Positions 12,908-44,413 of a DNA stretch of 64,000 nucleotides are shown piece after piece (position 1 is the stretch's first letter; each line of letters begins with the position of its first letter). Position numbers and translations under genes: made by a program. The stretch lies in the IMG/VR virus record IMGVR_UViG_3300037501_000255. One strand, given 5' to 3'. The notes under the pieces are model-generated. The model searched no databases, was not told the origin of the DNA, and saw only the letters and a list, made by a program, of their open reading frames with translations. This DNA comes from a virus (lineage: Duplodnaviria > Caudoviricetes).

Positions 12908-14998
12908 TCATGCCGCCGTAACTGAGATGTTTGAGATATTCGCCGTCCAGCCGGACGGCACCGTTATGCGCAAAATTACCGCGTTGCCACTGGTGGAAGT
13001 TGACTTGCTGCCCAGTGTCATGCCCCACGCAGTATACGCAGTATTTCCATATGTGGCTGCATGACATCCAATAGCATTGTCACTTGTGTAGGCTACCAAC
13101 GCATCTTTAAATTCTATAGAAACTCCATTAGAGGTTGTGTTTGGTGCGAGCAGCTCTACATTTGCGTCTCCTGTGCCGAGAGATAGTCCTGACGCTACGG
13201 TCTTGAAGTTAGCACCTGAGTGTGCTATATTTAGCACAAAATTCTGTGTGGCGGAGGAAAAGTAGAAGTATCTCCAGTACGTCCTGACGCCTAAGGCTAC
13301 GCTGTAGTTGGGGTTACCGGCTGGACCATTTGCTATGATAGAGAAATCTCCGGAGTTTACAACAGCGGAGGCGCTTGGATAGTATAGACTACCGTCATAC
13401 ACTAATAATCCATCACTGTACCCGGGCGTCGCACCGACGATTGATGTGGTTGAGCTCCATAGGCCGGCGCCGCCGACTGTAAAGCCAGTCGTATCCGTGA
13501 GAGACCTATTAGATGGTACGCGGTAGGTTTCGCCGTCAAATACTTCGTTTGTTGCAGATGCTGTGTCTGCAACTGAATTCAGTAATAGAAATGATTGTGT
13601 AGATCCTGTGCTAATTACGGCACCCTGTACGGTGCGCAGGGTTGATGTTCGGGCTGTAATCTGCCCGTTATGCAACTTGGGCGCAGTGATCGTCACCGTC
13701 TTTGCGACATTGAATGTACTTGCTTCGTATGGCGAGCCTGGTAACGCTGGAATAGCGGATGCTGATGCCGAACAATTGATGCTGGAGCTGTGTGTAACGG
13801 CCGATGATGATGAGCTGTATGTATTTCTATAGGCATTTTGTACGGTCACCGCGTAAGAGGCTGTGCCTCCTGTATGGTATTGAACGCCCGACAGATATTT
13901 TGACCCAGTCATAACTAGGCCGGTTAGAGATTCTGATGCATAGGCTGTAGCTGTGACGGCATCATCTATTACCCATTCAAATACATTTGTAGCATATGTG
14001 ATCATGCCTATAATGTGCCGTATCTCTACATAATTGTATCCATTCTGTTCATGTGCAGTGGATACGGTCCACGTGCCGGTGCGGTATTTGAAAATTGAAA
14101 ATGGCGTGCCGTTAGGAAAACTGATGGGTGTCGCCGCACTCAAAGAAAACCCAGTTCCACTTGTTGTGGACGTGCCAGAACCGAATGTCGACAGATCTAC
14201 AGAGTGAATTAGTAAACCATTTACGTGTATTTCCAAAAATCCTTGATCTGCATTTCCAAAGGCGTTGGCCGGATATGATGGTGTCGGTGAGCCGGGGCCG
14301 GCCACTACAGACGCCGCGAGAGTTCCGGTTTTACTACCAAATGTAGAGGCATATATTCCTCGCCTATGTGTGCTGCCATTTGGAAAAGTGCCGTTTACAT
14401 CAAGCGCGCCTTCGCCACTGATGTTGCCTACATTTACATATCCTGCTATTGTGTTTGATGCGCCGAATGACAGATTACCAGCTGCGCCTGCCACAGTGTC
14501 CCACGAGATGTTGCTGAGTGCCGGAGCTGGAGATGGCGCCAATTCTTTCATAACTTCATTAAATCTATCCACCGCTGTTCCAACTGGAGTTGTTGCAGTG
14601 AAATCGGTAAATAAGCCATCTGCATAGCTCCCGTCCTCTGCTGCACCGATCGCATTTGTTGAGGAAATAGGTAGTGTCGTTATAGTTATATACAACTCCC
14701 TAAGCGCATCCTCGACATTGGTTGCTACAAAATATCCATCTAGGTCTGCTATACTTATTTGATAGGCGGATAGCGACATTATGTACGCTACTATGGTATT
14801 TATAAGCGCATCAATATTGTCTAACCTGTCTTTTGTCGTGCCGAACGTGCCGCTAGGATTTGTTCCGAGCTCGTTTTCTATAGCCAAGATGGCATTGCGC
14901 AGACGATTGTGATCGTCTGCCAGTACCGGGCTGATTAAATCAAAAACCAGTGGTAATGTGACTGTGGTATCTATAGAAACTGGGTACTGTGTAGCCAT
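12908..14998 (-). CDS. Virion structural protein with shared fiber-anchor N-terminal domain
   Basis: 696 aa, Ser/Thr/Gly-rich and beta-rich. N-terminus MATQYPVSIDTTVTLPLVFDLISPVLADDHNRLRNAILAIENELGTNP matches three other fiber N-termini. Confidence 0.7.
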   Translation of the reverse strand: MATQYPVSIDTTVTLPLVFDLISPVLADDHNRLRNAILAIENELGTNPSGTFGTTKDRLDNIDALINTIVAYIMSLSAYQISIADLDGYFVATNVEDALRELYITITTLPISSTNAIGAAEDGSYADGLFTDFTATTPVGTAVDRFNEVMKELAPSPAPALSNISWDTVAGAAGNLSFGASNTIAGYVNVGNISGEGALDVNGTFPNGSTHRRGIYASTFGSKTGTLAASVVAGPGSPTPSYPANAFGNADQGFLEIHVNGLLIHSVDLSTFGSGTSTTSGTGFSLSAATPISFPNGTPFSIFKYRTGTWTVSTAHEQNGYNYVEIRHIIGMITYATNVFEWVIDDAVTATAYASESLTGLVMTGSKYLSGVQYHTGGTASYAVTVQNAYRNTYSSSSSAVTHSSSINCSASASAIPALPGSPYEASTFNVAKTVTITAPKLHNGQITARTSTLRTVQGAVISTGSTQSFLLLNSVADTASATNEVFDGETYRVPSNRSLTDTTGFTVGGAGLWSSTTSIVGATPGYSDGLLVYDGSLYYPSASAVVNSGDFSIIANGPAGNPNYSVALGVRTYWRYFYFSSATQNFVLNIAHSGANFKTVASGLSLGTGDANVELLAPNTTSNGVSIEFKDALVAYTSDNAIGCHAATYGNTAYTAWGMTLGSKSTSTSGNAVILRITVPSGWTANISNISVTAA

Positions 14999-15027
14999 TC
15001 TAGCCCCTCGATACCACTATTCTTTAA

Positions 15028-15035
15028 TATTGATA
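15028..15035 (-). promoter_or_regulatory. Candidate late promoter TATCAATA
   Basis: 30 nt upstream of 12908-14998. Confidence 0.45.
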
Positions 15036-15038
15036 TGG

Positions 15039-17111
15039 CTATAGTGGCCCGAATGCTAGGAATCGTGACTCGCCGTAAGCGACATTCGCGTGAGTCATAT
15101 CGAATAGTATGTAGTTATTTCCCAGCAGCATCACATAGTCCTCGGCGGCGGCCGAACCGGTCGTATCGACGACGTATACCCCATTCAGCTGACCTCGAAC
15201 TTCAGTGCCCGAATGACTGTAATCTGTACCATTATGAGTTACACTGCTCCATGGACCACGAATCACCATGGGCCACAGCATATATTGCGATGTTCGAGAT
15301 TCTTCGGCTGATTGATTAGTTATCTCTGTCTTGGTTGGACAGCCGAATCGATACATTTGTGGCACCAGTCCACTTGTGGCGTTTGATAGGGTTGTATTAA
15401 CATGATTGTTCATATGTATGGTGTTCGAACGATAGCTAGTAACGCCTACGGGCTGCAGGTCTATTCCAACTCTGGCCCCTGATGGGTAGTTGTGGTTTAT
15501 CTTGGCTAGCGTAATGTTATTGCCACTCTTTGCTATTACCGTGGTTTGTTCGTGGGCAGCAAAGTGACGCGTCACTCCATCTAGACCCACCCGAGTTATA
15601 GGTGATGTTGGTGTGTTGGCTAGATCTGCAATGAATATTTTTTGACCAACTGTTATACCAGAAGCATCAGTAAGAGTTACCGTCTGATTTACCCCTGCAC
15701 CGACCGTCGTGGTCGTGGCTGTGTATGCTCTGCTATAGTAGCTACTTATTAGCCCGGCGTATATGAAGTCATACTGTGATAGTGAGTTTTTCGTTACCAA
15801 AATTATTCTATCAGCCGAACCTATAAACCAGAAGTTTGTTGTTGGGCCTTCGTCAGAAATTTCAGCAAAACAGTTTTGCTTATATCCTATATGGCAATCT
15901 CCGCCGCTAGCATTTTCGGGGGCGGCAAAAATACTGGTCGTTGACCAGGAGTTTGAAGCTACGCTGTAACGACGCACATCTCTACCAGAGCCAGATGCGT
16001 CGGAAATGGTATGGTAGAATATGAATTCGTTGTCGTAATTCCATATACGGGCACCCTGCAGGGCTGCGGTAAATGGTAGGGCCGCTGCTGCAGTCCATAC
16101 TCCACTAGGAGTTCCATCTGGATTTATATTGAGATAGAAAAATTGAGTGGTGGAGTCACCGCGCATGAAATATAGGCGATCAAATGCCAGGCCATTAGCC
16201 GATGTCTTTTTGATGAAGATTAGGCCATTGCTATATGTAGTGGAGGTGCCTACGCTAGGTCCTGCAGTCCATACTCCGGTTGGTATGTCATACACACCGA
16301 AGTTGGAACCATTCTGCCCTTGGAAGAAGTATAGTTTATTTCTGCCATCCCAAGCTGATACACCGCCGGCGCCGGAGCCGCCCCACGATGGATTCGCCAT
16401 GTATGTCCATGAGTCGGCTGTTATATCATAACTGCCAAACTGAAGTCCGCTCGTGTTGCTCTCGAATGTGGCGAATATATATGGTTTTTTATCTACTGTA
16501 CTTACACAGTAAACTGGAGCAAATATACGTAGTGATGATGGCTGCGACGCCAATTGGTAGGCCGTAAAGTTGTTTAGATCATGTCTAAAAAATGCACTAT
16601 TAAAATTTGTGTACACATTGTGTGCGCCATCAAAAGTTGACCTACCCACCGTAATGCCAGGATAATCATAGTTATTTGATGCAGTGTATCCTGGCTGTAC
16701 ATAGAATGTGTATATTGAATTTCCAGGATCTATAAAGCTGCTTTGAGCATCAGTAAAGTACATGTAATTAGCCTTCTGAAAGATGTCTACTGGGCCAATT
16801 ACTCCTGCCTCTCCGTACCCATCAAGCGTTGCGCTATTAAAGCTGGTATATGTCCGAAATGCTATGCTGTTGGCATATCCGTCGCCCAGTGGTGTTTTAC
16901 GTAGGATCCCGCCATTTACATTGGGGGATTCTAGGCCGGCAGTCATGCGCAAGAATATCTGCTCCGTGCCCGACGTGCCAGCCGAGAAGTATACTTTATC
17001 GCGAGCTGAGATCGTTGCGTGCGTAGACCAGCCAGGTGTAGCAAGAATATAGCCATCTATGGTATTGAAGGCATGGTTTGAATTTTGAAATGTTCCTGAA
17101 TAGCTAGTCAT
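15039..17111 (-). CDS. Virion protein with Kelch-like beta-propeller (paralog A)
   Basis: Kelch-type blades (WDGRNKLYFFQGQNGSNFGVYDIPTGVWT; LYFMRGDSTTQF; RRYSVASNSWS). N- and C-terminal domains are shared with 17118-19223. Confidence 0.7.
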   Translation of the reverse strand: MTSYSGTFQNSNHAFNTIDGYILATPGWSTHATISARDKVYFSAGTSGTEQIFLRMTAGLESPNVNGGILRKTPLGDGYANSIAFRTYTSFNSATLDGYGEAGVIGPVDIFQKANYMYFTDAQSSFIDPGNSIYTFYVQPGYTASNNYDYPGITVGRSTFDGAHNVYTNFNSAFFRHDLNNFTAYQLASQPSSLRIFAPVYCVSTVDKKPYIFATFESNTSGLQFGSYDITADSWTYMANPSWGGSGAGGVSAWDGRNKLYFFQGQNGSNFGVYDIPTGVWTAGPSVGTSTTYSNGLIFIKKTSANGLAFDRLYFMRGDSTTQFFYLNINPDGTPSGVWTAAAALPFTAALQGARIWNYDNEFIFYHTISDASGSGRDVRRYSVASNSWSTTSIFAAPENASGGDCHIGYKQNCFAEISDEGPTTNFWFIGSADRIILVTKNSLSQYDFIYAGLISSYYSRAYTATTTTVGAGVNQTVTLTDASGITVGQKIFIADLANTPTSPITRVGLDGVTRHFAAHEQTTVIAKSGNNITLAKINHNYPSGARVGIDLQPVGVTSYRSNTIHMNNHVNTTLSNATSGLVPQMYRFGCPTKTEITNQSAEESRTSQYMLWPMVIRGPWSSVTHNGTDYSHSGTEVRGQLNGVYVVDTTGSAAAEDYVMLLGNNYILFDMTHANVAYGESRFLAFGPL

Positions 17112-17117
17112 AATCCC

Positions 17118-19223
17118 TCAAAGTATGGGTCCGACAATAGAGTATCTGGTATCTGACATGCCAATAAGATCGAATAGAAGGTAGTTCTGTCCGCCAATAT
17201 TGATGATATCCTCAGATGTTCCCCTGCCGTTACCGCAGGAGTACATGCCAATTAATTGACCTCTGACTTCCTTGCCGGAAAATCTGTTTCCAGTCCCCTC
17301 AGTAAATACTAAGTATGGCCACAGCGTGAATTCGCCGGTACGATCGTTGACATCTGTCAGTGCAGTATACTCCGCGGTGACGCCAGGTTCATATACATAT
17401 ACCTGCTCTGCTGGATCCCCGGAAGCCAAGTTATTTCCCACTCCTACGCCGGGCGTGTTTACGCAGTTAAGTGCCATCGCATAACGAGTCATGGCAGCTG
17501 TTGCAATAACAGCCTGTATATCGAAACCAATCAGTGAGTTGGTTGGATAGTCGTTCTTTAGCTCGGCCAATGTAATGCTGGTGCCGGGATTTATAGCTGT
17601 AATTTGCGTATGCTCGTTTTTTATTACATTTTGCGTAATATTTTGTATGGTTCCGGTAACTGCAGTCGGCGATCCTCGATCTATATCGCATATGTATATG
17701 CGCTGACCAACAGTAAATTGTGAAGTGCTGGCCACAGGAACAACCTGATTTACCCCGGCCCCTACAGCCGACGTTGTGCGCACCTGAGTGGTATCATCAT
17801 AGAAACTGTCTATTCTACCGATATAGCAATGATGGTATTTTCCTGATAGGCTTTTCGTAACAACAATCAACCTATCTTTGTTTACTATTATCCAATATTT
17901 TTGCTGTTCATTCGCGAAGGCTCGCACTCTGGCCTGATTACAGTAGTGCGTGTGTATGGTAGACGATTCGTTTATGTCTGCCCACATATAATTTACGCCC
18001 GCCAGAGTCCAGGATGCCGTCCCAGCCGGCGTTATATCCTGGTAATAGAATTCGCGACCTGTAGAACCTGCATCAGCTGCGCTGTACAGCAGTCTGCCAT
18101 AACCATCAAATTCCAAACCTGAGCCGCCGGATGGTGTGAGCGGCAGCGATGTCGCCGTTTGCCACGTGGGGGCATAGCCACCTACAGGCAATCCTGTGTC
18201 CTGTAGATCTATAAAATAGAGTTGTGATCCATTTATACCGCGATTTACATACAGTCTGTGATTAGTTATGCCGCCAGCGCCCTTTGGAACAATTGCAGCC
18301 CTGCTACCACGAGTATGTACCGTCGCTGGAAGTGCCGTAATCGAATTCCATGTATCAGTTACAATATCATATACTGCTACATTCGTATTGCCACCATCAT
18401 TAAAGTCCCCGCGTACAACATATACATATCTACCAATCGCTGCAGAACCGCGTTGGTTGTTACCATAACCCCACGGTACGTTTGATAGTTTGGTGCCGGA
18501 TATTAAAGTGCCTTCTTCATCAAATTCGTATTTATAGTATTGCGAGCCCGATGTGGCGCTGTTATAACTCGCAATTACCGCAAATCTATCGCGCTCTCTG
18601 ATATATCCGCTTGCGATAGCTCCTCCGCCATCAAACCCAAACATATAAATATTTTCACCGGTAGATATGTTGTACTTATAGAAGTTACCTTGCGCGAAGT
18701 AGTATATGAAATTCTTACCATCAAATACTGCGTTGCGTACATTAGCTTCTAGTCTACGATCGCGATTATCGCCGCCGGTGACATCGCCCCGCATATCTGT
18801 CCAACGTGAATCTCCAGATACACCGGTACGTAAATTACTCCAACGAATATCTGTGCTATTTTGTCCAACGTTTGCATACAAGCGTGGCCCAAATTTTCCT
18901 ATTTCCCCATACCCATCTACGGCTGGATTTGTGCCGCCAGAGTTAAAGTATTGGTAAGCATAGAAGTTCACATAGTCTGAGTATCCGTCCTCATCTAGAA
19001 TTTGAGGCCATCCCATATTCCACTTTTGCAGGTCTTCTATTCTATGTGCAACTCTGATGTAGTTGAAAGCGTATCCATCTTCTCCCGTAGAGAAGTATAC
19101 TCGATCTGAACTGTCGACTATAGTGGATTGCACTGACCAGCCGGATGCTATCATTGAGCTATCTATAGCATCCCACAGCGTCTGCGGGTGGTAGAATGTG
19201 CCTGATGAGAAGTAATTTGTCAT
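17118..19223 (-). CDS. Virion protein with Kelch-like beta-propeller (paralog B)
   Basis: Kelch blades (IGRYVYVVRGDFNDGGNTNVAVYDIVTDTWNSITALP). Shares DRVYFSTG, DGYGEIG and GKEVRGQLIG...NYLLFD with paralog A. Confidence 0.7.
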   Translation of the reverse strand: MTNYFSSGTFYHPQTLWDAIDSSMIASGWSVQSTIVDSSDRVYFSTGEDGYAFNYIRVAHRIEDLQKWNMGWPQILDEDGYSDYVNFYAYQYFNSGGTNPAVDGYGEIGKFGPRLYANVGQNSTDIRWSNLRTGVSGDSRWTDMRGDVTGGDNRDRRLEANVRNAVFDGKNFIYYFAQGNFYKYNISTGENIYMFGFDGGGAIASGYIRERDRFAVIASYNSATSGSQYYKYEFDEEGTLISGTKLSNVPWGYGNNQRGSAAIGRYVYVVRGDFNDGGNTNVAVYDIVTDTWNSITALPATVHTRGSRAAIVPKGAGGITNHRLYVNRGINGSQLYFIDLQDTGLPVGGYAPTWQTATSLPLTPSGGSGLEFDGYGRLLYSAADAGSTGREFYYQDITPAGTASWTLAGVNYMWADINESSTIHTHYCNQARVRAFANEQQKYWIIVNKDRLIVVTKSLSGKYHHCYIGRIDSFYDDTTQVRTTSAVGAGVNQVVPVASTSQFTVGQRIYICDIDRGSPTAVTGTIQNITQNVIKNEHTQITAINPGTSITLAELKNDYPTNSLIGFDIQAVIATAAMTRYAMALNCVNTPGVGVGNNLASGDPAEQVYVYEPGVTAEYTALTDVNDRTGEFTLWPYLVFTEGTGNRFSGKEVRGQLIGMYSCGNGRGTSEDIINIGGQNYLLFDLIGMSDTRYSIVGPIL

Positions 19224-19243
19224 AACTTACCTTTTTTCAATAT

Positions 19244-19251
19244 TATTGATA
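19244..19251 (-). promoter_or_regulatory. Candidate late promoter TATCAATA
   Basis: 21 nt upstream of Kelch paralog B. Confidence 0.45.
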
Positions 19252-19256
19252 GTCAA

Positions 19257-19460
19257 CTACGGCACCAGCGTCCCTAGAAGAGGCTCGAGACTACCTATAG
19301 TTACTGCCTGTATTTGCGCTGGAACCTCAGAAACCGCTGCAATACCCTGTACTGCTTCCAACTGGATTGCGGCGGAAGTTTCAAAAGTGGTTGTATACTC
19401 GCCCTCCTGCAATAGATCGCGTTTCTTTTTCAGAGTAGAATTGGTAGTAGCAGTCATCAT
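19257..19460 (-). CDS. Hypothetical protein
   Basis: 67-aa ORF filling the gap between genes, with SD-like AGGGG. Confidence 0.5.
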   Translation of the reverse strand: MMTATTNSTLKKKRDLLQEGEYTTTFETSAAIQLEAVQGIAAVSEVPAQIQAVTIGSLEPLLGTLVP

Positions 19461-19468
19461 CCCCTCGT

Positions 19469-20263
19469 TTATGGTTGAATCTTGAGTCCTTCTTCTTGAT
19501 TTTTGATAACTTTAGCGCCAAACAGCGGCCCCATAAATGTCGGCATCGGTGATGGCTGCCCCACAATCTGACTTTGAGTATATTCTTGACGAGTGACAGA
19601 GGAGCCGCTTTGTATGAGGGATTCAAAATCAAAATCTAGACTATACAATTGTTCCGTGTGAAAGATCATCCCCTGGCTGCTGCGAATTAGCGCTTCGAAA
19701 GCAAAGTTCTGGCTATACAATTGCGCAGTATGTAAAATAAGCCCGTCTGCGACAAGTTGGCTGTCGTCTATATTTGTTGTTAGTAGTGCAAATCTGCCGC
19801 CAGGATATGAGCCAAAATGTCCAAGGCTATAGTGTGCCATATTTGATCCTGTGGTATATTGCCACGCCTGCGTGGCCGAAATATGATTGCCATTATCTTC
19901 GGCATATGCAGTGGCAGATATGTTTGTATTGGGATTTGATAGGCGCGTAGCAGAAGATGGCGTGTATGATGTGGCTGTGTTCACTACTCTAACTACCCAT
20001 CCGATATGATCGTCAAAATATCCAATATGCTTAGAGTAACTGTATCCGTCTACAGCTACTCCAGAATTAATTACAGAGCCGCCTTTCCAACTTAGATTAA
20101 GAGAGTTGAAGTTGATATTTAGTGCGCTACCTCCGGCAATATGTATTCCGAAAATGAGATCCGCATCTCTGGCTGCGGCGCCTTCAAAGTCGTATGGTGA
20201 TAGTGGGGTAATAGTGAGCGTGCCGTAGTCCGGGCGTGCGCCGAAGAAAATAAATAGTGGCAT
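19469..20263 (-). CDS. Putative virion structural protein
   Basis: Probable start MPLFIFFG at 20263 (SD GGGGG). Beta-rich, with internal repeat QLYSQNFAFEALIRS / QLYSLDFDFESLIQS. 1 DGY. Confidence 0.6.
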   Translation of the reverse strand: MPLFIFFGARPDYGTLTITPLSPYDFEGAAARDADLIFGIHIAGGSALNINFNSLNLSWKGGSVINSGVAVDGYSYSKHIGYFDDHIGWVVRVVNTATSYTPSSATRLSNPNTNISATAYAEDNGNHISATQAWQYTTGSNMAHYSLGHFGSYPGGRFALLTTNIDDSQLVADGLILHTAQLYSQNFAFEALIRSSQGMIFHTEQLYSLDFDFESLIQSGSSVTRQEYTQSQIVGQPSPMPTFMGPLFGAKVIKNQEEGLKIQP

Positions 20264-20406
20264 GCTATACCCCCAGGTATTGCGTAACTGATACATTTAT
20301 TTGCGCATCAGTTATGATCATATTATTATATAGCATTATGCCTCTAACTGCAACATTTGTTGTAATAGCATTTGCTTCACTATAACCCAAGAAATTGCAG
20401 CGCCTA

Positions 20407-36054: not shown

Positions 36055-36885
36055 CTATAAGATCACGGGGCCGCCGGGGGAATATACCTTCCCGTGCTTC
36101 TTCAGCCACCCGGATACTGCTTCATATCCCTCACTGATCATATCCAGGACATCAGCCTCGGTCATCCCAAGATTTAAACCACCATGCTTACTTTTAATCA
36201 GGATCACCCTGTGATCTGGCACATCTTCTATACGCTCAGCAGCATTGGCCTCTAGCATAGTATCAATTACTGCACTTGTATAATCAAATGCATTTCTGAT
36301 TGGATCATATTTTCCCTTGACAGATTTAAACCGTATACCTATGACCTGGGCTTCGCTACCGAAATAATCGATCATGAAATTTCCGGCTAGTCCACCATCA
36401 ACATAAGTCTCACCATCCAGTTTAACTGGCACAAAAACCCCTGGTATAGACATACTCGCACGCACAGCTAGAGATACATCCATATCAGGATGCTTATTTG
36501 TGCTGAATACCCGCATTTCTCTACGATCTATATTGCACGTGACTACATGGAGCGGTATCTTTGTATCCTTAAACTTTTTGACAAGATATTTATCCAATGT
36601 CTCCTCGATCTTTTCGCCTTTTATGAATCCCCATTTTGTCATTAGAGCCCAAATTGATGGATCTACCAATTTATTTTTAGCTGGTAAGGTCTTCTTGACC
36701 ATCTCAATTAATTCGCCATTCGGCTTATATCCCGACGCTAGTGCTGCTGCAATAATTGCGCCGCCACTAGTACCCACAACCTCTTCAAATTCAAAACCCG
36801 CCTCAGCAAGCCGTATAACAGCTCCAACATGTGCGGGATATAAGGTACCTGAACCAGACAATACTAGTTTAATTTTTTTTGACAT
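36055..36885 (-). CDS. Patatin-like phospholipase
   Basis: Gly-rich loop VLSGSGTLYPAHVG, nucleophile elbow GTSGG, ASMSIPGVFVP and catalytic YVDGG. Confidence 0.92.
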   Translation of the reverse strand: MSKKIKLVLSGSGTLYPAHVGAVIRLAEAGFEFEEVVGTSGGAIIAAALASGYKPNGELIEMVKKTLPAKNKLVDPSIWALMTKWGFIKGEKIEETLDKYLVKKFKDTKIPLHVVTCNIDRREMRVFSTNKHPDMDVSLAVRASMSIPGVFVPVKLDGETYVDGGLAGNFMIDYFGSEAQVIGIRFKSVKGKYDPIRNAFDYTSAVIDTMLEANAAERIEDVPDHRVILIKSKHGGLNLGMTEADVLDMISEGYEAVSGWLKKHGKVYSPGGPVIL

Positions 36886-36902
36886 AAAATCCTCGAAATA
36901 TG

Positions 36903-37061
36903 TTAAGTGCCGGCCTCGCCCGCGCGCTTAGCTTTTTTAATCAATGATTCAACAACGGTCTTAGTAAGGCCTAACTCTTTAACTTTTATCTTTTTAATAG
37001 GTTCAGCGACCGACTCCTGCGCAGTCCCAGATGAACTAATATCAATTAATTTTATTTTCAT
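36903..37061 (-). CDS. Small basic protein (52 aa; below ORF-track cutoff)
   Basis: MKIKLIDISSSGTAQESVAEPIKKIKVKELGLTKTVVESLIKKAKRAGEAGT. ATGA overlap with the upstream stop; fills the gap exactly. Confidence 0.6.
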   Translation of the reverse strand: MKIKLIDISSSGTAQESVAEPIKKIKVKELGLTKTVVESLIKKAKRAGEAGT

Positions 37062-37786
37062 GACACATCCTCATACCATCTATATAGAATACCTATCCTA
37101 ACATCAGATACTCCAACGCTAGTATAAGTTGTTCGCAAGAAAAGCCCACTCGCCACGGGAGCTACTGTAGGCATAATGATGTTATCGTTGTAATCTCCTT
37201 CTGGAACATGGTAACTATCAACATACTTGACTAGTTCAATTGGAGTTCCTACTGGTAAACCGTACAACGTATGCAATCCTAGGATATTATTTTTATCAAC
37301 AACACTAAAGCTCACCTCATCCCCATCAGCCGCACCGCGAATCCAGAATTGGCCACCTTGTATTAGCGATTGATTAGTAATCTCTACATCTAGTATAGTC
37401 GAAGTTCCTGCTGCAGCAGCAAGCCTATATCCTTTAAGACGAGCATGCTCACTGGTAGTTAGAAATGTTGGTGAATATACAGGGTGACCGTACGTAACAC
37501 CATCGCCAGCGCGCGGCTGCACGCTACGATTACACAGCGCCTTGCTATTTGTTTCAAAATCTGAAACCCACGCATCATTATCAACTTGAGCTATACCAAT
37601 ATTTTGTGGAACAGCTCCTCGGTATAACGTTGCGGTATATACAATTGGGCCGTCAAAAGCAAAAATTTCGTAAATATCTGCATATTCATCAAGCTGCATC
37701 AACATGAATTTTGAATTACATATAGACTTAAAGTCTGGCCAGGTTTTAGGTATGCTGACGAAGCCGGAACCAATCATCACTGTCAT
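37058..37786 (-). CDS. Putative virion structural protein
   Basis: 242 aa, ATGA-coupled, with a beta-rich C-terminal jelly-roll-like part. Confidence 0.55.
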   Translation of the reverse strand: MTVMIGSGFVSIPKTWPDFKSICNSKFMLMQLDEYADIYEIFAFDGPIVYTATLYRGAVPQNIGIAQVDNDAWVSDFETNSKALCNRSVQPRAGDGVTYGHPVYSPTFLTTSEHARLKGYRLAAAAGTSTILDVEITNQSLIQGGQFWIRGAADGDEVSFSVVDKNNILGLHTLYGLPVGTPIELVKYVDSYHVPEGDYNDNIIMPTVAPVASGLFLRTTYTSVGVSDVRIGILYRWYEDVS

Positions 37787-38970
37787 AGGCTGCTCTCCGC
37801 AAATTCTATAATATAACTTACTGAACCACTAGTATTATTTGTAACATTCCGCAATGCCATACCCTCGCCCGCTCGGAATGTGAGCGGAGCTACGTCATTT
37901 TTCACCGAGAAGATCTCGCCATTGACAGCGAATGCTAGAGCATTAAACCAGTTGGCATTGGCTAGATTTACTTGATTAATTGAAGCGAAGAACCTGCGTA
38001 TGATATAAGATTCGGTAACAGTCGTATCGTTAGTAAAAGATTGCATAACTGATCCCGCAGAAGAGGTATCAAACTTTCTGATAGGTACGGATGTGCCACC
38101 GCTACGATTAGTTATGAAGGCTATATATTCATCTAGCGTGGCCGACTGATTACCGGCATTTTGCCAATTGAGCACATAAACGTTCTCGACCTCTAGTAAC
38201 TTACCGCTGCCCAATGGATTAAATAGTGTGCCCATATATTTGTTGGCCGCTGGTACAATACGGTCAAACAGTATATAGTAGTGCGGCTTGGTGCTCGACG
38301 TAACGTTAACCTGTAACGGCGGCTGATCGCTAGCCATAGTTACAGGGATAGATAGGGCCGCACTTTTCTGCCCTACGGTGGGGGCAGTAGAGCCAAGCCA
38401 GGCACCAACATTGGAATCCAGCCTACCCCCAACTAATGAGGCAGGAAGTCGAGTTTCAAGCTCGCTCCTTATATCTTTAAGGCGCCCAAGAACAGTATAG
38501 GCCGCAGGAGTAACCTGCACCTCGCCCATACGAGCCTCAAATTCCGCTTCTGTCAATAATGTAGAGAGCGTTGCCTCAGAAGCGCGAGTTGACATTGTAA
38601 CATCTAAATTAGATGGATTTTGAATAGCCGCGCGACCACTAGAGTCAATATCCAGAATATTGCTACCGCTAACCACCTGCGTTTTTTGAGATCCGGCGGT
38701 TAGTGTAATGTCAAGCGCAAGCCCTCCCGTAGCACCAATATTGGCAGCAACAGTTCCAGATATCGGCTGTATAGTTGTTCCGGATGGATCAATTTTCAAA
38801 GTACCATCTGCTGCAACTCTTAGTAGTCGTATGGTGCCAGAATCACTTCCGCCTACCAACACTCCGCTTGCATTGGCAGGAATACTAGAATTGGACTTCA
38901 CTACAGCCGAGTACCCGTCCGCGTTCACGATTTCAACAGACGGCTGATTTAATACGACAACTCCAGACAT
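37783..38970 (-). CDS. Putative virion/fiber protein
   Basis: 395 aa with fiber-like modules (LDVTMSTRASEATL, GQKSAALSIPVTMASDQ). 1 DGY. Confidence 0.6.
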   Translation of the reverse strand: MSGVVVLNQPSVEIVNADGYSAVVKSNSSIPANASGVLVGGSDSGTIRLLRVAADGTLKIDPSGTTIQPISGTVAANIGATGGLALDITLTAGSQKTQVVSGSNILDIDSSGRAAIQNPSNLDVTMSTRASEATLSTLLTEAEFEARMGEVQVTPAAYTVLGRLKDIRSELETRLPASLVGGRLDSNVGAWLGSTAPTVGQKSAALSIPVTMASDQPPLQVNVTSSTKPHYYILFDRIVPAANKYMGTLFNPLGSGKLLEVENVYVLNWQNAGNQSATLDEYIAFITNRSGGTSVPIRKFDTSSAGSVMQSFTNDTTVTESYIIRRFFASINQVNLANANWFNALAFAVNGEIFSVKNDVAPLTFRAGEGMALRNVTNNTSGSVSYIIEFAESSL

Positions 38971-39926
38971 TACGGCGTCTCCACATTACTTATACTTGAT
39001 ACAATATTGCCATTATAGGCATAGGTGCTAGTTAACCTCTGTATTTCTACACCTGCTGCGTCATATTGAATAGCCACTTGCTGATATATTTTATTGCCGA
39101 TATATGTGTACTGGTATTCCCGAATTTTTGTAGTCATTGAGACATTTGTATATGTAGTTATAGATGCAACTTTATTACCATCATATATTATGTTTTCATA
39201 ACTATCCTCTGATATGTTATGCACAAGACTATCAATGTTTTCATGATAAGGTTCTGTAATCCCGCCACTAGTAATTGCAGAATCTAACTCTTCAATTGCC
39301 CCCTGTATATCAGTAGCCGTTACATTCGTCAAGCCAGTAGGGTCGATGCCAATGGTAGAGGCTCCAGTCGGATGGTAGATCGATAAGACGCCCACACCAA
39401 TACTAGATGGTAGCGATTCGACGGTGGTTAATACGGTCTGACTATCCACAGATGCAATCGTATATGTGCCAGCAGCTGCACCGCCAACAATAACAATTAT
39501 ATCTCCAGGATACGCTCGCCACAGCTCAAACTTAGCATTATTACATACAATTGTTTTTGTAAATGATGTTGTAGATGAAACCTGTACCGGAAATACACCA
39601 TCATATATGACAACATCTTTATTTGATGATATTAGTTCAGATGATGTAACATACTGCTCTTGTATCGCAAAAACTGAAAAGTTCTGCTGTAGCAGCATAT
39701 ACGGGTCATAATCATAGCCATCGACAGCGGTTTCGCCATAATCCTGGCTGCCTATTTTTAATGTTAACAGGCCATCACTTATAGCGGTAGTTAGATCGCT
39801 ACTGTTTGCTATTTCATCAGCGCTAAAATCTGTAGCCAGGTCATAATCTACTGCCGGGTGAGCTAGGAATATGCCCAGGTCTTTAACTAACACATCGGAT
39901 GATACTGTGCTAACCAAAAATTGCAT
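38970..39926 (-). CDS. Putative virion protein with C-terminal YD-like beta-hairpins
   Basis: 'DLG' N-terminal domain; ATDIQGAIEELD; C-terminal IYDGNKVASITTY...YTYIGNKI...YAYNGNIVSSI. Confidence 0.6.
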   Translation of the reverse strand: MQFLVSTVSSDVLVKDLGIFLAHPAVDYDLATDFSADEIANSSDLTTAISDGLLTLKIGSQDYGETAVDGYDYDPYMLLQQNFSVFAIQEQYVTSSELISSNKDVVIYDGVFPVQVSSTTSFTKTIVCNNAKFELWRAYPGDIIVIVGGAAAGTYTIASVDSQTVLTTVESLPSSIGVGVLSIYHPTGASTIGIDPTGLTNVTATDIQGAIEELDSAITSGGITEPYHENIDSLVHNISEDSYENIIYDGNKVASITTYTNVSMTTKIREYQYTYIGNKIYQQVAIQYDAAGVEIQRLTSTYAYNGNIVSSISNVETP

Positions 39927-39947
39927 AATCTTCCCATATTGAAGTAA

Positions 39948-39996
39948 GCGGGCTCATAAACGGTACAGTGGGAAGTTGTGCCGTTTACGAGCCCAC
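39948..39996 (-). terminator. Long stem-loop after the 40018 gene (terminator or mRNA stabiliser)
   Basis: GTGGGCTCGTAAACGGCACA-loop-TGTACCGTTTATGAGCCCGC, with only a weak U-tract. Confidence 0.6.
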
Positions 39997-40017
39997 TATC
40001 ATACTGCTAGGCTATAT

Positions 40018-41316
40018 TTATACTCTCCAGGCAATTTCTACAGCTGCCAGAGGCTGCGGCACTGCCGTGCCGTTGCAATAGAGCTGTATTTCATCGCCGG
40101 CACTGATATCTACGTTTGTAGAAGTTGTGCTACTGCCAGCAACTGCCGTAAGTGTTAGTGAGGCAATTGGGGTGACAACACCATTCTTGCGCACTTCCAG
40201 TGTCCACGTATGGGCGCTATCGGTCTGGGCTACCAGGCCAACAATGGTTCCATTACGCATGGCGCGATACCCTGTACTGCTCGACGCCAGACCATCCGGT
40301 CCGCGCAGATAAAGATTCGTAGCATTACCATTACGAGCAGCCCACCACATCTGGCGCTCAACAGAGAGCCACTTGGAACGAGTACCATCGTATACATACA
40401 GTATGCCACCGATAAACGAAGTCTTCCCATCAACGCCTGTCGGTGGAGAGACATCAACTGGGAGTATGATTTCGCCAGTCGTAAAGTCAAACGTACCAGA
40501 AACAACGTTGCGCGCTGCGTTGCCAGATAGCAATGCATATTGAGTATGATCATCATCGAGCATGCCGGTAAGCACGCCGTGGTCGGTGACGGAGCTAGTC
40601 GTATCCGTCAGCTCTACCCAGGATAGGCCGTCGTAGAATACGAGATAACCATCATCACTATCAAATGCAATTTCGCCAGCTGCCGGAGTTGCAAAGTTCG
40701 CTGCTGGATCCGTATCGGACGGCAGACCCAGGCGCCCACCAGAGGCATCGAGAGTACCGTTTAGATCAATGCTGCCAGTTACTGTATTGCGGGCAGCATT
40801 ACCTGATAGCAGCAAATATTGAGTGTGGTCATCATCAAGCAGACCGCTAAGCTGGTCGTGCGAAGTGAGGTCACCACCCTCAGACAATTGAACATATTTT
40901 GACTCATAGCCATCATAAAATACCAGATAGCCATCATCTGTGTCATAGAAGAAGTCACCAGCTAGGGTTGGGACCCATCCGGATTGACGATTTGGGATAG
41001 TAAGGCGACCGTCACGAAGATCGAAATGATTGTTGCCAAAATCCTTAACAAAGGCAACGTCAGAATCAAAAGTGCCGGTTTCCTGAGCAATGCCATCTTG
41101 AGACCATTCCAGATATCCATCTGTAATAGCCATATATAGGTCATATGAATTTTTTAGCTCATCAGCAGTAAACTGGCCGTAACCATCAATTGGTCCCAGA
41201 CCATTGTGTACGCTCAGCACCGTCCATGATGCCCCTGTAAGCACTACATAACCAAGATCTGAAATTAGGAAATCAGGATCAGAGCCACCATTCCCTGTGC
41301 GGACATAAAATGACAT
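40018..41316 (-). CDS. Virion protein, probably abundant, with duplicated central module
   Basis: Duplicated DDGYLVFYDG...HxxLxGxLDDDHTQYxLLSGNAARN. C-terminal domain shared with 41373 and 42929. SD GGAGG. 5 DGY. Confidence 0.7.
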   Translation of the reverse strand: MSFYVRTGNGGSDPDFLISDLGYVVLTGASWTVLSVHNGLGPIDGYGQFTADELKNSYDLYMAITDGYLEWSQDGIAQETGTFDSDVAFVKDFGNNHFDLRDGRLTIPNRQSGWVPTLAGDFFYDTDDGYLVFYDGYESKYVQLSEGGDLTSHDQLSGLLDDDHTQYLLLSGNAARNTVTGSIDLNGTLDASGGRLGLPSDTDPAANFATPAAGEIAFDSDDGYLVFYDGLSWVELTDTTSSVTDHGVLTGMLDDDHTQYALLSGNAARNVVSGTFDFTTGEIILPVDVSPPTGVDGKTSFIGGILYVYDGTRSKWLSVERQMWWAARNGNATNLYLRGPDGLASSSTGYRAMRNGTIVGLVAQTDSAHTWTLEVRKNGVVTPIASLTLTAVAGSSTTSTNVDISAGDEIQLYCNGTAVPQPLAAVEIAWRV

Positions 41317-41363
41317 TTAAAGCCTCCAAAAATACCCTATCATAAATCAAAGCAATGAATAAT

Positions 41364-41371
41364 AATTAGTA
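41364..41371 (-). promoter_or_regulatory. Candidate late promoter TACTAATT
   Basis: 48 nt upstream of the 40018-41316 start. Confidence 0.5.
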
Positions 41372-41372
41372 G

Positions 41373-42914
41373 TCAGCCGCGTCGTGCCAAGACAACGCTA
41401 ACTCTAGGATATGATATATTACTTCCATTCATATATAATTGAATAGCTGTCCCTGCAGCCACGTCTACATTAAGAGTATTGGAGAATGCCTGAGTGGCCG
41501 CATTAACGGTAAGCGCAGCTCCGACCAGCGGAACTAGCCCGACGCGCACCTCGCCCGTCCACGTCGCCGCCGCCCGACACGAAAGACTCATGCCAACTAT
41601 AGTAGCATCAAATGGGACTATAAATGGTGCCACAGTTGAAGCTACACCATCATCATGATAGAAATACACATTTGATGCGTTGTGCACGTCACGAGCACCG
41701 CCCGTCATAACTGTACGTGGAGAGAGCCACTTGCCCCGTATGCCATCATAAACATATAATTCATACTCTGGTACTTTAACCCATAATTGTCCAGGATACG
41801 GCGCTGCCGGCGCACTTGCCGCAACAGTAGTTGAATTTACCTGCGCCCACGAGGCTAGCCCCGAACCATCTCCGCGCAAAAAATAGCCATCTACTGCACC
41901 GGTAGGCATCTGAAAAGCTGTAGTTCTGGTTAATCCTATAACATCAACTGCGGCAGTTGGAGAAAGTGTGCCAACGCCTATGCTGGCAGCAGCCAAGATA
42001 TTATCAGCAAATGTCTTTTCTCCAAATACAGTTTCATCCTGATTCTGATTTACATAATTATCATCAGCAAACTCTAAACTAGAATCATTCAAAAACTCGG
42101 GGTCTTCTTGATATCCTGATGGTAATGGCACTCCTGCAGGCAGCTCAATTAAGTAAAATACTCTGCATGATAGCGAAGATTCCGGCGCAGCATTAAGTAT
42201 GACTGTTGTCCCAATCTGAGATGTTACCTTAACTCTATTTGACGGCAAATATTTGGCCGGAATAGACAATGTTGTTGTCGGAGGCGCGGCGCTGTCTGCA
42301 CTTAGCACTATAACAGCAGTATCATTTATAAGATATGATGGATTAAACGCCAGCCCAGTTCCATTTTGAAAATTTGTTAGAGTAAGACTGGTTGAAACTG
42401 GCGCTGAAAAGTCCTGATACTGCCATATTTTTATTGGTGGTTTAACATTGCCGGCAAATAGTAACCAATCTTCCTTAGTAAGATAACCATCCGCAGTCGC
42501 GCTGGCGGGTGGTATGCTTAGCGCTCCGCTATTAATTTGTAGCGGAGGGGTCGCTGATGCTATTGCGGGTGCTATCCAAGAAAACTTATCATCATCTACG
42601 GCCGAAGGTACTGCCCCAGGAAAATAAGCATTGGTAGAATTGATATTTCGTGGACCTACTATTCCATAGTAGAAGCTCGCCAGAACAAGACGACGTATTA
42701 CGAGAGTCTTTTTAATTACGACTTCATTATATAGATCTCCCCATGGCTTTTCTAGGCCTTTGAGAATAAGATCTTCATATAATGTATTAGGATCTACTTC
42801 GTCAAATAGCTCAACTACTTGACCGGGCAGAATCGTAGTAAGGCCAAGCAGACGTACGGCCTTGTTCGAGATATTCTCTATTACTAGACTGGGCCTGTAG
42901 AACGGTACAGTCAA
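41373..42914 (-). CDS. Virion/fiber protein (paralog of 42929-44413)
   Basis: Collinear similarity to the neighbour: ENISNK, GYLTKEDWLLF, WQY, CRVFYLIELPAG, LWVKVPEYELYVYDG. Confidence 0.7.
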   Translation of the reverse strand: MTVPFYRPSLVIENISNKAVRLLGLTTILPGQVVELFDEVDPNTLYEDLILKGLEKPWGDLYNEVVIKKTLVIRRLVLASFYYGIVGPRNINSTNAYFPGAVPSAVDDDKFSWIAPAIASATPPLQINSGALSIPPASATADGYLTKEDWLLFAGNVKPPIKIWQYQDFSAPVSTSLTLTNFQNGTGLAFNPSYLINDTAVIVLSADSAAPPTTTLSIPAKYLPSNRVKVTSQIGTTVILNAAPESSLSCRVFYLIELPAGVPLPSGYQEDPEFLNDSSLEFADDNYVNQNQDETVFGEKTFADNILAAASIGVGTLSPTAAVDVIGLTRTTAFQMPTGAVDGYFLRGDGSGLASWAQVNSTTVAASAPAAPYPGQLWVKVPEYELYVYDGIRGKWLSPRTVMTGGARDVHNASNVYFYHDDGVASTVAPFIVPFDATIVGMSLSCRAAATWTGEVRVGLVPLVGAALTVNAATQAFSNTLNVDVAAGTAIQLYMNGSNISYPRVSVVLARRG

Positions 42915-42928
42915 CGCTCACCGCCCTG

Positions 42929-44413
42929 TCAGAGGCTCTTTCTAAATATCGCCTCAATTTTTGGTTTATCTATCATGTGACCATTTACAAAAAATTGTAT
43001 TCGATCACCTAGATTGAATTGTACGTTGAGATCTACTCGAAATCCACGTCCATCCTCACCAACCCCAATTGCAGCGCCAGGAACCAGAGAGTTATTTACA
43101 TGAATTTCAGCCGTCCACACAGAGCCGCGCTCGCTTGAGGCGACTAGACCGACCAAAGTGCCCTTGAAAGGCAGTATATCGCTCGTAGAGCCGCCTCCGT
43201 GCGTGAGGTAGGCGTGCGCAAGCAGTTGCGGGGACCATGCACTCATAGAGCGTTCTGCGACGCTTAGCCAGCACGACCGGGTACCATCATAAACATATAG
43301 TTGGAATTCAGGAGATTTTACCCACAGCTGTCCATTATAACAACTGACTGGCGGACCATCAGATACTAGTGGGTTAGGTTGCCAGCTACCATGACCCATT
43401 GCGGAAGATGTTAGGGAGTAGTTGGCCTGCGGGGAATCCTTTAAGACTATAGAGTGCGCCGTTACAGGTCCGCCGACCACTAACTCTCCTACGATTTTCT
43501 GATTGGCTTCAAATGCCACATCAGACTTAAATGTTTTAGCTCCCTTTATGAATTCTGTTTTAGAGCTATTTAGATCAATAAAATCAAAGTATTCTGCGCG
43601 TACTTTACGTACATAGTCAGGAGCGCCACTGTATGAAGCAGGTATTTCAGTACCAGCAGGTAGGGCAACTAAGAAGTATAGCCTACACTCTTCAGTTGGA
43701 GAAGGTGCGCGATCTAGGACAACCTCATCTCCAACATGCTGTATAACAACGATACCGCCATTACCAGAAATACGATTCCACAGGGAACGACCAGGCGCTT
43801 CATTATCAGACTTTCGCACAACCACGGCGCTACCACTAACAATAGATCCTGCATTAAAAGGGATATTAATATCGCTAAATGATGCAATCTTGCATCTTAC
43901 ACCAGGATCTAGCGGAAGATCGCAATATTGCCATATACGAAATCCGGTAGTAATGTTGCTAAACATTAGCCAGTCTTCTTTGCTAAGGTACCCCGATGTA
44001 TGTGCTCCAGCACGCTCCATACGCAGAACATCACCATCACGTACCAGCGGCGGGTCGACATCTACATGCCCTCCGCCACCACTAACCCATTTCAAATCCT
44101 TGCCATCAAAACCCACAACCTTTCCGCGCTCAGGCGCATTCACTGTGCGGATATGGCCACTATCAATCTGAACATTATCTAATGAGGCTAATCTGAAATC
44201 ATGGATAATAATCTTTTTCTGCAACACACTAAAAACATACAGCTCGCCATTTGGTGAGCGCAGCGCATCAATGACCCGAGCCTCACTTAGAGTTGGGATA
44301 GATTTGAATAGATCTGTGCGTGCACCTGGATGTAGTCGGTAGCTGCCAAACAGGATAACATCCTTACTTGACACGTTCTCAACATGAAAAAATACTTCTG
44401 TAAAAGCTACCAT
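42929..44413 (-). CDS. Virion/fiber protein (paralog of 41373-42914)
   Basis: Probable start MVAFTE at 44413 (SD GGAG). Same domain order as the paralog. No DGY. Confidence 0.7.
   Translation of the reverse strand: MVAFTEVFFHVENVSSKDVILFGSYRLHPGARTDLFKSIPTLSEARVIDALRSPNGELYVFSVLQKKIIIHDFRLASLDNVQIDSGHIRTVNAPERGKVVGFDGKDLKWVSGGGGHVDVDPPLVRDGDVLRMERAGAHTSGYLSKEDWLMFSNITTGFRIWQYCDLPLDPGVRCKIASFSDINIPFNAGSIVSGSAVVVRKSDNEAPGRSLWNRISGNGGIVVIQHVGDEVVLDRAPSPTEECRLYFLVALPAGTEIPASYSGAPDYVRKVRAEYFDFIDLNSSKTEFIKGAKTFKSDVAFEANQKIVGELVVGGPVTAHSIVLKDSPQANYSLTSSAMGHGSWQPNPLVSDGPPVSCYNGQLWVKSPEFQLYVYDGTRSCWLSVAERSMSAWSPQLLAHAYLTHGGGSTSDILPFKGTLVGLVASSERGSVWTAEIHVNNSLVPGAAIGVGEDGRGFRVDLNVQFNLGDRIQFFVNGHMIDKPKIEAIFRKSL

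What the first reader, a model, noticed from the sequence alone, without database searches (positions are those of the whole stretch)
12908..44413. DGY is gained and lost by point substitution within homologous modules
Seen in paralogous pairs: TADGYLTKEDW (41373) vs HTSGYLSKEDW (42929); PSDGYFSDGYFGF (33321) vs AEDGSYADGLFTDF (12908); FYDGYESK vs FYDGLSW (two repeats inside 40018); RWKDGYFG vs RWQDIHL (two modules inside 28489). So DGY is not needed for the fold of these modules and is written into them site by site. Inference: ongoing selection to add tags, as expected for a modification sequon rather than a structural motif.
Basis: partly seen in the sequence, partly recalled or inferred. 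Interest (0 to 1): 0.7.

Follow-up and report, generated by a model that had tools for sequence, protein, structure and literature searches.

The report
DGY tag written by point substitutions
In this uncultured huge phage the three-residue motif Asp-Gly-Tyr has been written into, and erased from, otherwise ordinary virion-protein modules one substitution at a time, and whole related phage lineages either carry it on all outer proteins or on none, which points to an unknown factor that reads or modifies the motif.

Summary
All four paralogous pairs are real, at the stated ORFs, and differ at DGY by one or two residues.

- **Excess.** The window has 64 DGY against about 4 expected. All synonymous codons are used. 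DGF, DGW, NGY and EGY show no excess.
- **Derived sites.** In the 40018 protein family, 21 DGY-rich proteins form one clade. The sister clade and the outgroups have none, and those DGY-free proteins sit in phages with 1 DGY in 18,857 residues. Sites arise on one-off precursors: DG[ST], D[TLV]Y and xG[YF].
- **Retention.** Between 25-50% identical orthologues, 56% of DGY sites are kept, against 10-15% of control tripeptides. About 40% still differ, and the totals stay equal.
- **Virion-wide switching.** DGY status is shared by all outer proteins of a phage and has changed at least three times in one protein family.
- **Exceptions.** Two sites (DGYLTKEDW, DGYR) are old. The first also occurs in DGY-poor phages, the second in otherwise DGY-poor family members. 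Eight of nine modelled sites share one local structure, a loop entering a beta-strand.

The sequon reading is therefore favoured but not shown; no modification or writer is demonstrated. This scan had already noted the DGY excess in this genome and in other huge-phage genomes. I found no publication describing it.

The parts
42483..42491 (-). DGY142 of ORF 41373-42914 (ADGYLTKEDW module). An old site, kept in 24 of 26 family members.
43988..43996 (-). SGY144 of the paralogue 42929-44425, the untagged counterpart of DGY142. This protein and the three relatives' orthologues found carry no DGY.
41883..41891 (-). DGY342 of ORF 41373-42914, first residues of a beta-hairpin. Variable in the family (PGF, PGL, PGR, AGK, YGY, AGY).
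34824..34847 (-). SDGYFSDGYF (DGY216 and DGY221) of ORF 33321-35492.
14612..14635 (-). EDGSYADGLF (DGS122, DGL127) of ORF 12908-14998, the untagged version of the same module. Conserved in the G002 orthologue.
40906..40935 (-). DDGYLVFYDGY (DGY128 and DGY135), first hairpin repeat of ORF 40018-41316. DGY-free homologues read D[DE]xLY.[WH]DG[ST].W.
40624..40653 (-). DDGYLVFYDGL (DGY222, DGL229), second hairpin repeat of ORF 40018-41316.
40471..40479 (-). TGE280 of ORF 40018-41316. This position is DGY in 20 of 22 tagged relatives, so the window lineage lost it.
30493..30501 (-). DGY765 in RWKDGYFG of ORF 28489-32793. DGY in all 15 copies found in clade homologues. Cyanophage and roseophage fibres have NIY, DIF, NIW, DGH or DGF here.
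31135..31143 (-). DIH551 in RWQDIHL, the untagged copy of the same module in ORF 28489-32793.
30532..30540 (-). DAY752 (DDAYSLG) of ORF 28489-32793. DDGYSLG in several relatives, D[DN]TYDLG in unrelated phages.
34632..34640 (-). DGY285 in RWKDGYFG of ORF 33321-35492.
22976..22984 (-). DGY289 of ORF 21785-23848, in the loop before the F strand of an FN3 domain. Most of the family has GD[TLVM]YYFAV, so DGY arose by a change of the middle residue to Gly.
22526..22534 (-). DGY439 of ORF 21785-23848. An old site, DGY in 37 of 44 family members; it is NGY or YGY in the lineage that lost its tags.
1..45000 (-). Block of outer virion, fibre and decoration genes holding 61 of the window's 64 DGY.

Best explanation
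DGY is a short linear motif that a clade of huge phages has superimposed on pre-existing loop-to-strand junctions of its outer virion proteins. A factor acting in trans recognises the tripeptide itself. The most likely candidate is a phage-encoded enzyme that covalently modifies the Tyr hydroxyl, for example a glycosyltransferase.

Shown:
- Sites are made and unmade by single residue changes on one-off precursors (DG[ST] to DGY, D[TLV]Y to DGY, xGY to DGY).
- Once made, sites are kept 3-5 times better than comparable tripeptides.
- Tag status is a property of the whole virion and of particular proteins, and it has switched between related phage lineages several times.

Inferred:
- Coordinated on/off behaviour across unrelated folds needs a common reader or writer.
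- That factor is an enzyme acting on Tyr.
For: 1. The requirement is at the protein level and strict for all three positions. There are 64 DGY against 3.95 expected. In the structural block DGF is 2, DGW 0, NGY 1, EGY 1 and DAY 1, while DGY is 61. Fifteen synonymous 9-mers are used. Of 48 DGY shared with G001 or G002, 45 differ by synonymous changes.
2. DGY is derived in the 40018 family. All 21 DGY-rich members (3-9 each) form one clade. The 22-member sister clade and five of the six rooting outgroup proteins have none; the sixth has one. The DGY-free members lie in related phages that share several virion genes with the window and have 1 DGY in 18,857 residues.
3. Site-level polarity: GD[TLVM]YYFAV becomes GDGYYFAV; RW.[ND][IG][YFWH] in cultured cyanophages and a roseophage becomes RWKDGYFG; DG[ST] becomes DGY at several sporadic sites.
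4. Retention is 56% against 10-15% for controls at 25-50% identity, 70% against 25-49% at 50-65%, and 80% against 32-65% above 65%. Window against G002: 28 of 47 kept, against 11 of 50 for DG[^Y] (Fisher P 2e-4).
5. Turnover with a constant count: 47 against 46 aligned sites, with 19 and 18 private ones, many of them one-off. In three families DGY has the most parsimony gains of all tripeptides: 52, or 4.7 times the composition expectation.
6. Tagging goes by protein. 42929-44425 and the three orthologues found have 0, while its paralogue has 2-5 in every relative.
7. Tagging goes by lineage. L058 has 31 DGY in 4,652 residues. The loci of its nearest relatives have 2 in 7,252 (L055) and 0 in 3,276 (L056). 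A tree built with DGY masked needs 4 changes of state, 3 of them forced by well-supported branches, and the DGY-free trio is nested inside rich clades. In that trio the sisters' sites read DGT, DGF, NGY, YGY and DNY.
8. Pro never follows DGY (0 of 153 sites, about 6 expected), and basic residues are depleted on both flanks.
9. The 68%-identical relative G001 carries a cluster of GT2-like and GT1-like genes. An earlier unverified note places a glycan-building island in this genome as well.
Against: - No modification has been observed and no writer has been linked to the motif. The glycosyltransferase cluster is circumstantial.
- 8 of 9 modelled sites have the same local structure, with D-G in a loop and Y at or one residue before the first residue of a beta-strand or bridge. 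An intrinsic structural role would also predict this.
- Two sites are old. DGYLTKEDW occurs in DGY-poor phages, and DGYR occurs in otherwise DGY-poor proteins of the family.
- DGY is not avoided in non-virion proteins: 4 in the first 90 kb of G001, about as expected by chance. A cytoplasmic enzyme reading a bare tripeptide would need a further determinant.
- The parsimony gain counts are noisy, because alignment jitter gives other tripeptides similar ratios.
Confidence: 0.45

Rival explanations
1. DGY is read without covalent change. It is a docking motif for a decoration, adaptor, chaperone or assembly protein of these phages, or for a host-surface ligand, that binds many outer virion proteins.
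For: The same evolutionary signatures apply as for a sequon: strict tripeptide, tagging by protein and by lineage, and turnover with a constant count. The constant loop-to-strand presentation would suit a binding epitope.
Against: Sixty or more sites on very different folds, some back to back (DGYFSDGYF), are many for a stoichiometric partner. No candidate partner was identified.
Confidence: 0.2
2. DGY is an intrinsic structural or physicochemical device, a cap at the start of a beta-strand (Asp and Gly in the turn, Tyr packing or hydrogen-bonding). It is favoured in these phages because of their environment or particle architecture, and nothing reads it.
For: 8 of 9 modelled sites share one local structure. 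Sites arise where a Gly turn or a structural Tyr already exists. Two sites are old and one of them occurs in DGY-poor phages.
Against: Homologous folds in related phages do without it entirely. A paralogue in the same virion never has it. Conservative variants that should serve the same turn (NGY, DGF, DGW) show no excess at all. Loss is coordinated across all the virion proteins examined in the two tag-free loci.
Confidence: 0.22
3. DGY is imposed by the host side. It could be selection to escape, or to engage, a host protease, defence sensor or receptor that discriminates this tripeptide, so that on/off switches follow host switches.
For: The lineage-wide switching could track host changes. 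The motif is confined to outer proteins.
Against: There is no host information. Enrichment of a motif, rather than avoidance, is not the usual signature of escape. The specificity for Tyr over Phe is unexplained.
Confidence: 0.08
4. The pattern is a by-product at the DNA level: a nucleotide word (a restriction, methylation or recombination site), or gene conversion spreading one module.
For: Some modules are repeated within and between genes.
Against: Fifteen different 9-mers encode DGY, and the word is virtually absent from the other strand. Of the shared sites, 45 of 48 differ synonymously between relatives. The flanks are unrelated.
Confidence: 0.02

Closest known systems
Turnover of N-X-S/T sequons in viral glycan shields (HIV Env, influenza HA); from general knowledge
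   Same: A three-residue motif is gained and lost by point substitution at shifting positions, while the number per protein is maintained. The motif is not needed for the fold. Pro is excluded next to the motif.
   Different: The motif and the acceptor differ (Tyr or Asp instead of Asn). The writer is unknown. This is a phage virion rather than an enveloped animal virus. No glycan has been shown.
General O-glycosylation motif of Bacteroidota, D-(S/T)-(A/I/L/V/M/T); from general knowledge
   Same: A three-residue motif that begins with Asp and marks many exported proteins of unrelated folds. It is specific to a lineage.
   Different: There the acceptor Ser or Thr is at position 2. Here position 2 is Gly and the only hydroxyl is the Tyr at position 3. 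That motif marks cellular proteins rather than virions.
Virion glycosylation of mycobacteriophages by phage-encoded glycosyltransferases (Freeman et al. 2023; from general knowledge, not read here)
   Same: Phage-encoded transferases decorate outer virion proteins. Relatives of this phage carry clusters of glycosyltransferase genes.
   Different: No defined tripeptide sequon is known there; the modified stretches are Ser/Thr-rich ends of capsid and tube proteins. Here nothing is known about the chemistry.
Tyrosine corner and type I' beta-turns of Greek-key and FN3 domains (structural motifs; from general knowledge)
   Same: A Gly-containing turn followed by a Tyr that starts a strand. DGY289 of 21785-23848 sits exactly at the FN3 loop before the F strand.
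   Different: Those motifs are universal across lineages and tolerate Asn or Phe. DGY is specific to certain lineages, is strict at all three positions, and is absent from homologous FN3-bearing proteins of related phages.

Membership tests
Sequon-directed protein modification (glycosylation type) | A short fixed motif is enriched in a defined set of target proteins and absent from others. | tested here: met
   61 of 64 DGY lie in the outer-virion block. Tagged and untagged status is conserved across orthologues. The first 90 kb of G001 show no excess.
Sequon-directed protein modification (glycosylation type) | The acceptor residue is strictly required. | tested here: met
   In the structural block DGF is 2, DGW 0, NGY 1 and EGY 1, against DGY 61.
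Sequon-directed protein modification (glycosylation type) | The motif is dispensable for the fold and turns over by point substitution, while its density is maintained. | tested here: met
Sequon-directed protein modification (glycosylation type) | A cognate transferase is present and co-varies with the motif. | tested here: inconclusive
   There is a cluster of GT2-like and GT1-like genes in relative G001. The other contigs are fragments, and no co-variation test was possible.
Sequon-directed protein modification (glycosylation type) | A covalent adduct sits on the motif. | not testable with these tools
   This needs mass spectrometry of virions or of co-expressed proteins.
Structural turn motif (tyrosine corner or type I' turn) | Present in homologous folds whatever the lineage. 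| tested here: not met
   DGY-free homologues exist at 45-51% identity, and whole loci are DGY-free.
Structural turn motif (tyrosine corner or type I' turn) | Conservative replacements (Asn for Asp, Phe or Trp for Tyr) are similarly favoured. | tested here: not met
Structural turn motif (tyrosine corner or type I' turn) | A constant local secondary structure. | tested here: met
   8 of 9 modelled sites have D-G in coil and Y at or one residue before the first residue of a strand or bridge. The remaining site lies in a low-confidence stretch.
DNA-level word (restriction, methylation or recombination site) | A fixed nucleotide sequence, independent of reading frame. | tested here: not met
   15 synonymous 9-mers are used; there are 65 matches on the coding strand against 1 on the other. 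Shared sites differ synonymously.
Tyrosine sulfation site | Acidic surroundings, few basic residues, and a sulfotransferase present. | tested here: inconclusive
   Basic residues are depleted around DGY, but acidic residues are also depleted upstream. No sulfotransferase was searched for.

The most novel reading that the evidence does not exclude
DGY is the sequon of an undescribed virion-modification system of huge phages that acts on tyrosine (or aspartate). The system has been switched on and off repeatedly between related lineages. The sister pairs with and without tags found here (for example L058 against L055 and L056; clade A against clade B of the 40018 family) would let the writer be identified by phylogenetic profiling.
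Probability: 0.4. Interest if true: 0.85.

Novelty: new variant of a known kind. Interest (0 to 1): 0.72.

Why it matters
If a factor reads DGY, this would be, as far as I know, the first tripeptide tag known to mark the outer surface of a phage particle. It would be a phage counterpart of the sequons that govern glycan shields of animal viruses.

This report adds an evolutionary argument. The tag is derived, is kept by selection, is written on one-off precursors, and is erased from all the virion proteins examined when a lineage drops it. That turns a statistical oddity into a testable prediction: some gene should co-vary with DGY richness. It also supplies natural pairs with and without tags for the test.

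The rules found here also tell an experimenter what to mutate:
- all three residues are required;
- Pro never follows the motif;
- the motif is presented at a loop-to-strand junction.

Tried and rejected
- **Cultured phages.** Nucleotide and protein searches gave no relative for the DGY-bearing proteins. The only hits were a C-terminal domain of 33321-35492, a C-terminal domain of 20407-21777 and the protease domain of 58188-62045.
- **20407-21777 domain.** Its homologues in Gordonia, Ruegeria and other phages start after DGY345, so they gave no outgroup state.
- **Ascertainment bias.** The pattern used to fetch outgroups of the DGYLTKEDW module required GYL. I corrected for this by counting further copies found with a profile. 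Among the 11 copies the pattern did not select, 2 are DGY.
- **Viral contig scan.** A scan with the alignment of 21785-23848 found only one known relative.
- **Gain ranking.** The parsimony ranking of gains is noisy. Several rare tripeptides reach similar observed-to-expected ratios through alignment jitter, so I use it only as a rough figure.
- **Solvent exposure.** The AlphaFold runs return secondary structure but no coordinates, so the exposure of the Tyr could not be measured.
- **Fold searches.** They only named the folds: a jelly-roll knob for 41373-42914 and an FN3 array for 21785-23848.
- **Whole genome.** None is held for the window. The reported glycan island of this genome could not be checked; only a cluster of glycosyltransferase genes in relative G001 was seen.
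- **Literature.** Searches for DGY or Asp-Gly-Tyr in phages found nothing relevant.
- **DNA-level explanation.** Rejected on codon usage.
Full report
**Setting.** The window is an all-minus-strand block of virion genes from an uncultured huge phage; one of its proteins lies on a 367,953-base contig.
- From about 64,000 down to 45,000 lie head genes. They include a 1,285-residue protein with a prohead-protease-like domain and a major head protein gene interrupted by endonuclease ORFs.
- From 45,000 down to 1 lie decoration, fibre, FN3-array and other outer virion proteins.
- No cultured phage is a relative at the DNA level, or for most of these proteins.

**The motif.**
- In 50 ORFs (20,247 residues) DGY occurs 64 times against 3.95 expected (Poisson P about 2e-53). 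It is the most enriched tripeptide.
- It is encoded by 15 different 9-mers. The degenerate word occurs 65 times on the coding strand and once on the other. The constraint is therefore on the protein.
- It is strict at all three positions. In the structural block DGY is 61, while DGF is 2, DGW 0, NGY 1, EGY 1 and DAY 1, each at or below expectation.
- The flanks carry no extended motif, with two exceptions: Pro never follows DGY (0 of 153 sites, about 6 expected) and basic residues are depleted.
- This scan had already flagged the DGY excess in this genome and in several other huge-phage genomes. I found no paper on it.

All four are real.
- 41373-42914 and 42929-44425 are full-length paralogues (E 2e-67). 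DGY aligns with SGY, and a second DGY with ANY.
- 33321-35492 and 12908-14998 share a module in which DGYFSDGYF aligns with DGSYADGLF (E 4e-4). Each state is conserved in that protein's orthologues.
- The two hairpin repeats of 40018-41316 end in YDGY and YDGL.
- RWKDGYFG and RWQDIHL are two copies of one fibre module in 28489-32793.

**Relatives.** I assembled five related stretches:
- G001, an IMG/VR contig of 125 kb, about 68% protein identity;
- G002, 65 kb, about 45% identity;
- G003, 52 kb;
- L020 and L022.

All show the excess, and only in the fibre block. G001 has 52 DGY in its last 35 kb and 4 in its first 90 kb.

Tag status goes by protein. Every tagged protein of the window is tagged in at least one relative's orthologue, and nearly every untagged one is untagged in all of them. 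The paralogue 42929-44425 has 0 in the window and in the three relatives that hold an orthologue, while 41373-42914 has 2-5 in all six genomes.

**Retention and turnover.** Over reciprocal-best orthologues of tagged proteins, the share of sites kept was:

| Protein identity | DGY kept | Control tripeptides kept (DG[^Y], [^D]GY, D[^G]Y, xGx) |
|---|---|---|
| 25-50% | 56% | 10-15% |
| 50-65% | 70% | 25-49% |
| above 65% | 80% | 32-65% |

- Window against G002: 28 of 47 DGY kept, against 11 of 50 for DG[^Y] (Fisher P 2e-4).
- Of 48 DGY shared with G001 or G002, 45 differ by synonymous changes. The sites are therefore held by selection on the residues.
- Yet about 40% of sites differ between the window and G002, symmetrically: 19 are private to one and 18 to the other, and the aligned totals are 47 and 46.
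- Many private sites face a one-off state: DGT, DGN, DGH, DGR, DGF, DGS, DGI, DAY, DLY, DSY or AGY. Gly is the residue most often kept.

**Polarity, tested with outgroups.**
- *The 40018 family* (61 homologues).
  - 21 DGY-rich proteins (3-9 each) form one clade. A 22-member sister clade and five of the six rooting outgroup proteins have none; the sixth has one.
  - The DGY-free members lie in phages that share several virion genes with the window (51%, 43% and 40% identity). Those phages have 1 DGY in 18,857 residues.
  - The hairpin reads D[DE]xLY.[WH]DG[ST].W without the tag and DDGYLVFYDG[Y/T/V/L] with it.
  - Three sites became nearly fixed on the stem of the tagged clade. One of them has since been lost in the window (TGE280).
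  - A dozen sporadic sites arose later on DG[ST] or xGx turns.
- *The 21785 family* (153 representatives).
  - DGY289 lies in the loop before an FN3 F strand, and most of the family reads GD[TLVM]YYFAV there. The tag was made by changing the middle residue to Gly.
  - DGY439 is old (37 of 44) and survives in otherwise DGY-poor members.
- *The RW module.* Fibres of cultured cyanophages and a roseophage have NIY, DIF, NIW, DGH or DGF after RW. Upstream they have D[DN]TYDLG where some relatives of the window have DDGYSLG and the window has DDAYSLG. These matches are weak individually (E about 1-9), but all lie in annotated fibre or structural genes.
- *The DGYLTKEDW module.*
  - DGY-poor phages carry the same module, with DGY in 9 of 21 distinct copies. 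Among the copies not selected by my search pattern, 2 of 11 are DGY.
  - The other copies read NGY, AGY, TGL, SGF, NGF, DGW or RGA.
  - Here x-G-aromatic is structural and DGY is an old, common variant. The huge-phage family has fixed it (24 of 26).

The condition that would refute the finding is therefore met for a minority of sites only.

**Gain rate.** Across three families, DGY has more parsimony-inferred gains than any other tripeptide: 52 gains and 32 losses, or 4.7 times the composition expectation. This figure is noisy. It agrees with a simple balance: loss slowed three- to four-fold cannot alone give a 16-fold excess, so creation must also be favoured several-fold.

**Lineage-wide switching.**
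- In the 21785 family a tree built with DGY masked needs 4 changes between DGY-rich and DGY-poor proteins. Three of these are forced by well-supported branches.
- One poor trio (P0087, P0108, P0091) is nested within rich clades.
- The neighbourhoods agree. The locus of the rich sister P0071 has 31 DGY in 4,652 residues. Those of P0091 and P0108 have 2 in 7,252 and 0 in 3,276.
- In the poor trio the sisters' sites read DGT, DGF, NGY, YGY and DNY. The tags decayed by single substitutions in all the proteins examined.
- This coordinated behaviour across unrelated folds is the strongest argument that something acts in trans on the tripeptide.

**Structure.**
- AlphaFold models were made of 41373-42914 (mean pLDDT 75) and 21785-23848 (mean pLDDT 87).
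- They place D and G in coil and Y at, or one residue before, the first residue of a beta-strand or bridge at 8 of 9 sites. The ninth site lies in a low-confidence stretch.
- So the motif needs a particular presentation, which fits a recognition site but also an intrinsic cap.

**Reading.** The inference that DGY is not required for the fold and is under selection to be added and kept is supported. Whether it is a modification sequon remains open. My weights are:
- a covalent sequon, about 0.45;
- a non-covalent docking motif, about 0.2;
- an intrinsic structural device under lineage-specific selection, about 0.2;
- host-imposed selection, under 0.1.

A cluster of GT2-like and GT1-like genes in the close relative G001, and an earlier unverified note of a glycan island in this genome, make a glycosyltransferase the first candidate. 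Nothing links them to DGY yet.

Noticed in passing
46817-49860: The major head protein gene is split. Pieces at 49558-49860 and 46817-47164 match residues 10-105 and 235-349 of an uninterrupted 341-350-residue gene in relatives (phrog_2522 major head protein, E 8e-75). Two LAGLIDADG endonuclease ORFs (48622-49482, 47385-48200) lie between the pieces. Whether these are introns or inteins is not resolved, and the middle piece was not mapped.
   Followed up: partly
25205-26419, 44475-45680, 45626-46684, 47385-48200, 48622-49482: There are five homing-endonuclease-like ORFs (LAGLIDADG, GIY-YIG, HNH-like) within 64 kb of virion genes.
   Followed up: no
36055-36885: A patatin-like phospholipase gene (E 1e-34) sits inside the virion block. 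It is conserved in all relatives and never carries DGY.
   Followed up: no
58188-62045: A 1,285-residue protein whose residues 51-263 resemble the prohead protease region of Bacillus phage G gp19 and of many actinophages. The rest is unassigned.
   Followed up: no
window-wide, G002 and G003: Pro never follows DGY (0 of 153 sites, about 6 expected). Lys and Arg are depleted on both sides.
   Followed up: partly
L058 against L055 and L056; L046-L048: Related phages fall into DGY-rich and DGY-free kinds across all their virion proteins. These natural pairs could be used to find the responsible gene.
   Followed up: partly
L024 (G003:C1:46681-48720): The G003 orthologue of 21785-23848 contains one in-frame TGA.
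   Followed up: no
41373-42914 and 42929-44425: Both paralogues, encoded just downstream of the head genes, end in a jelly-roll knob. It resembles phage cement and decoration proteins and C1q/TNF-like domains (Foldseek E 1e-4 to 1e-3). They may be head or neck decorations rather than tail fibres.
   Followed up: partly
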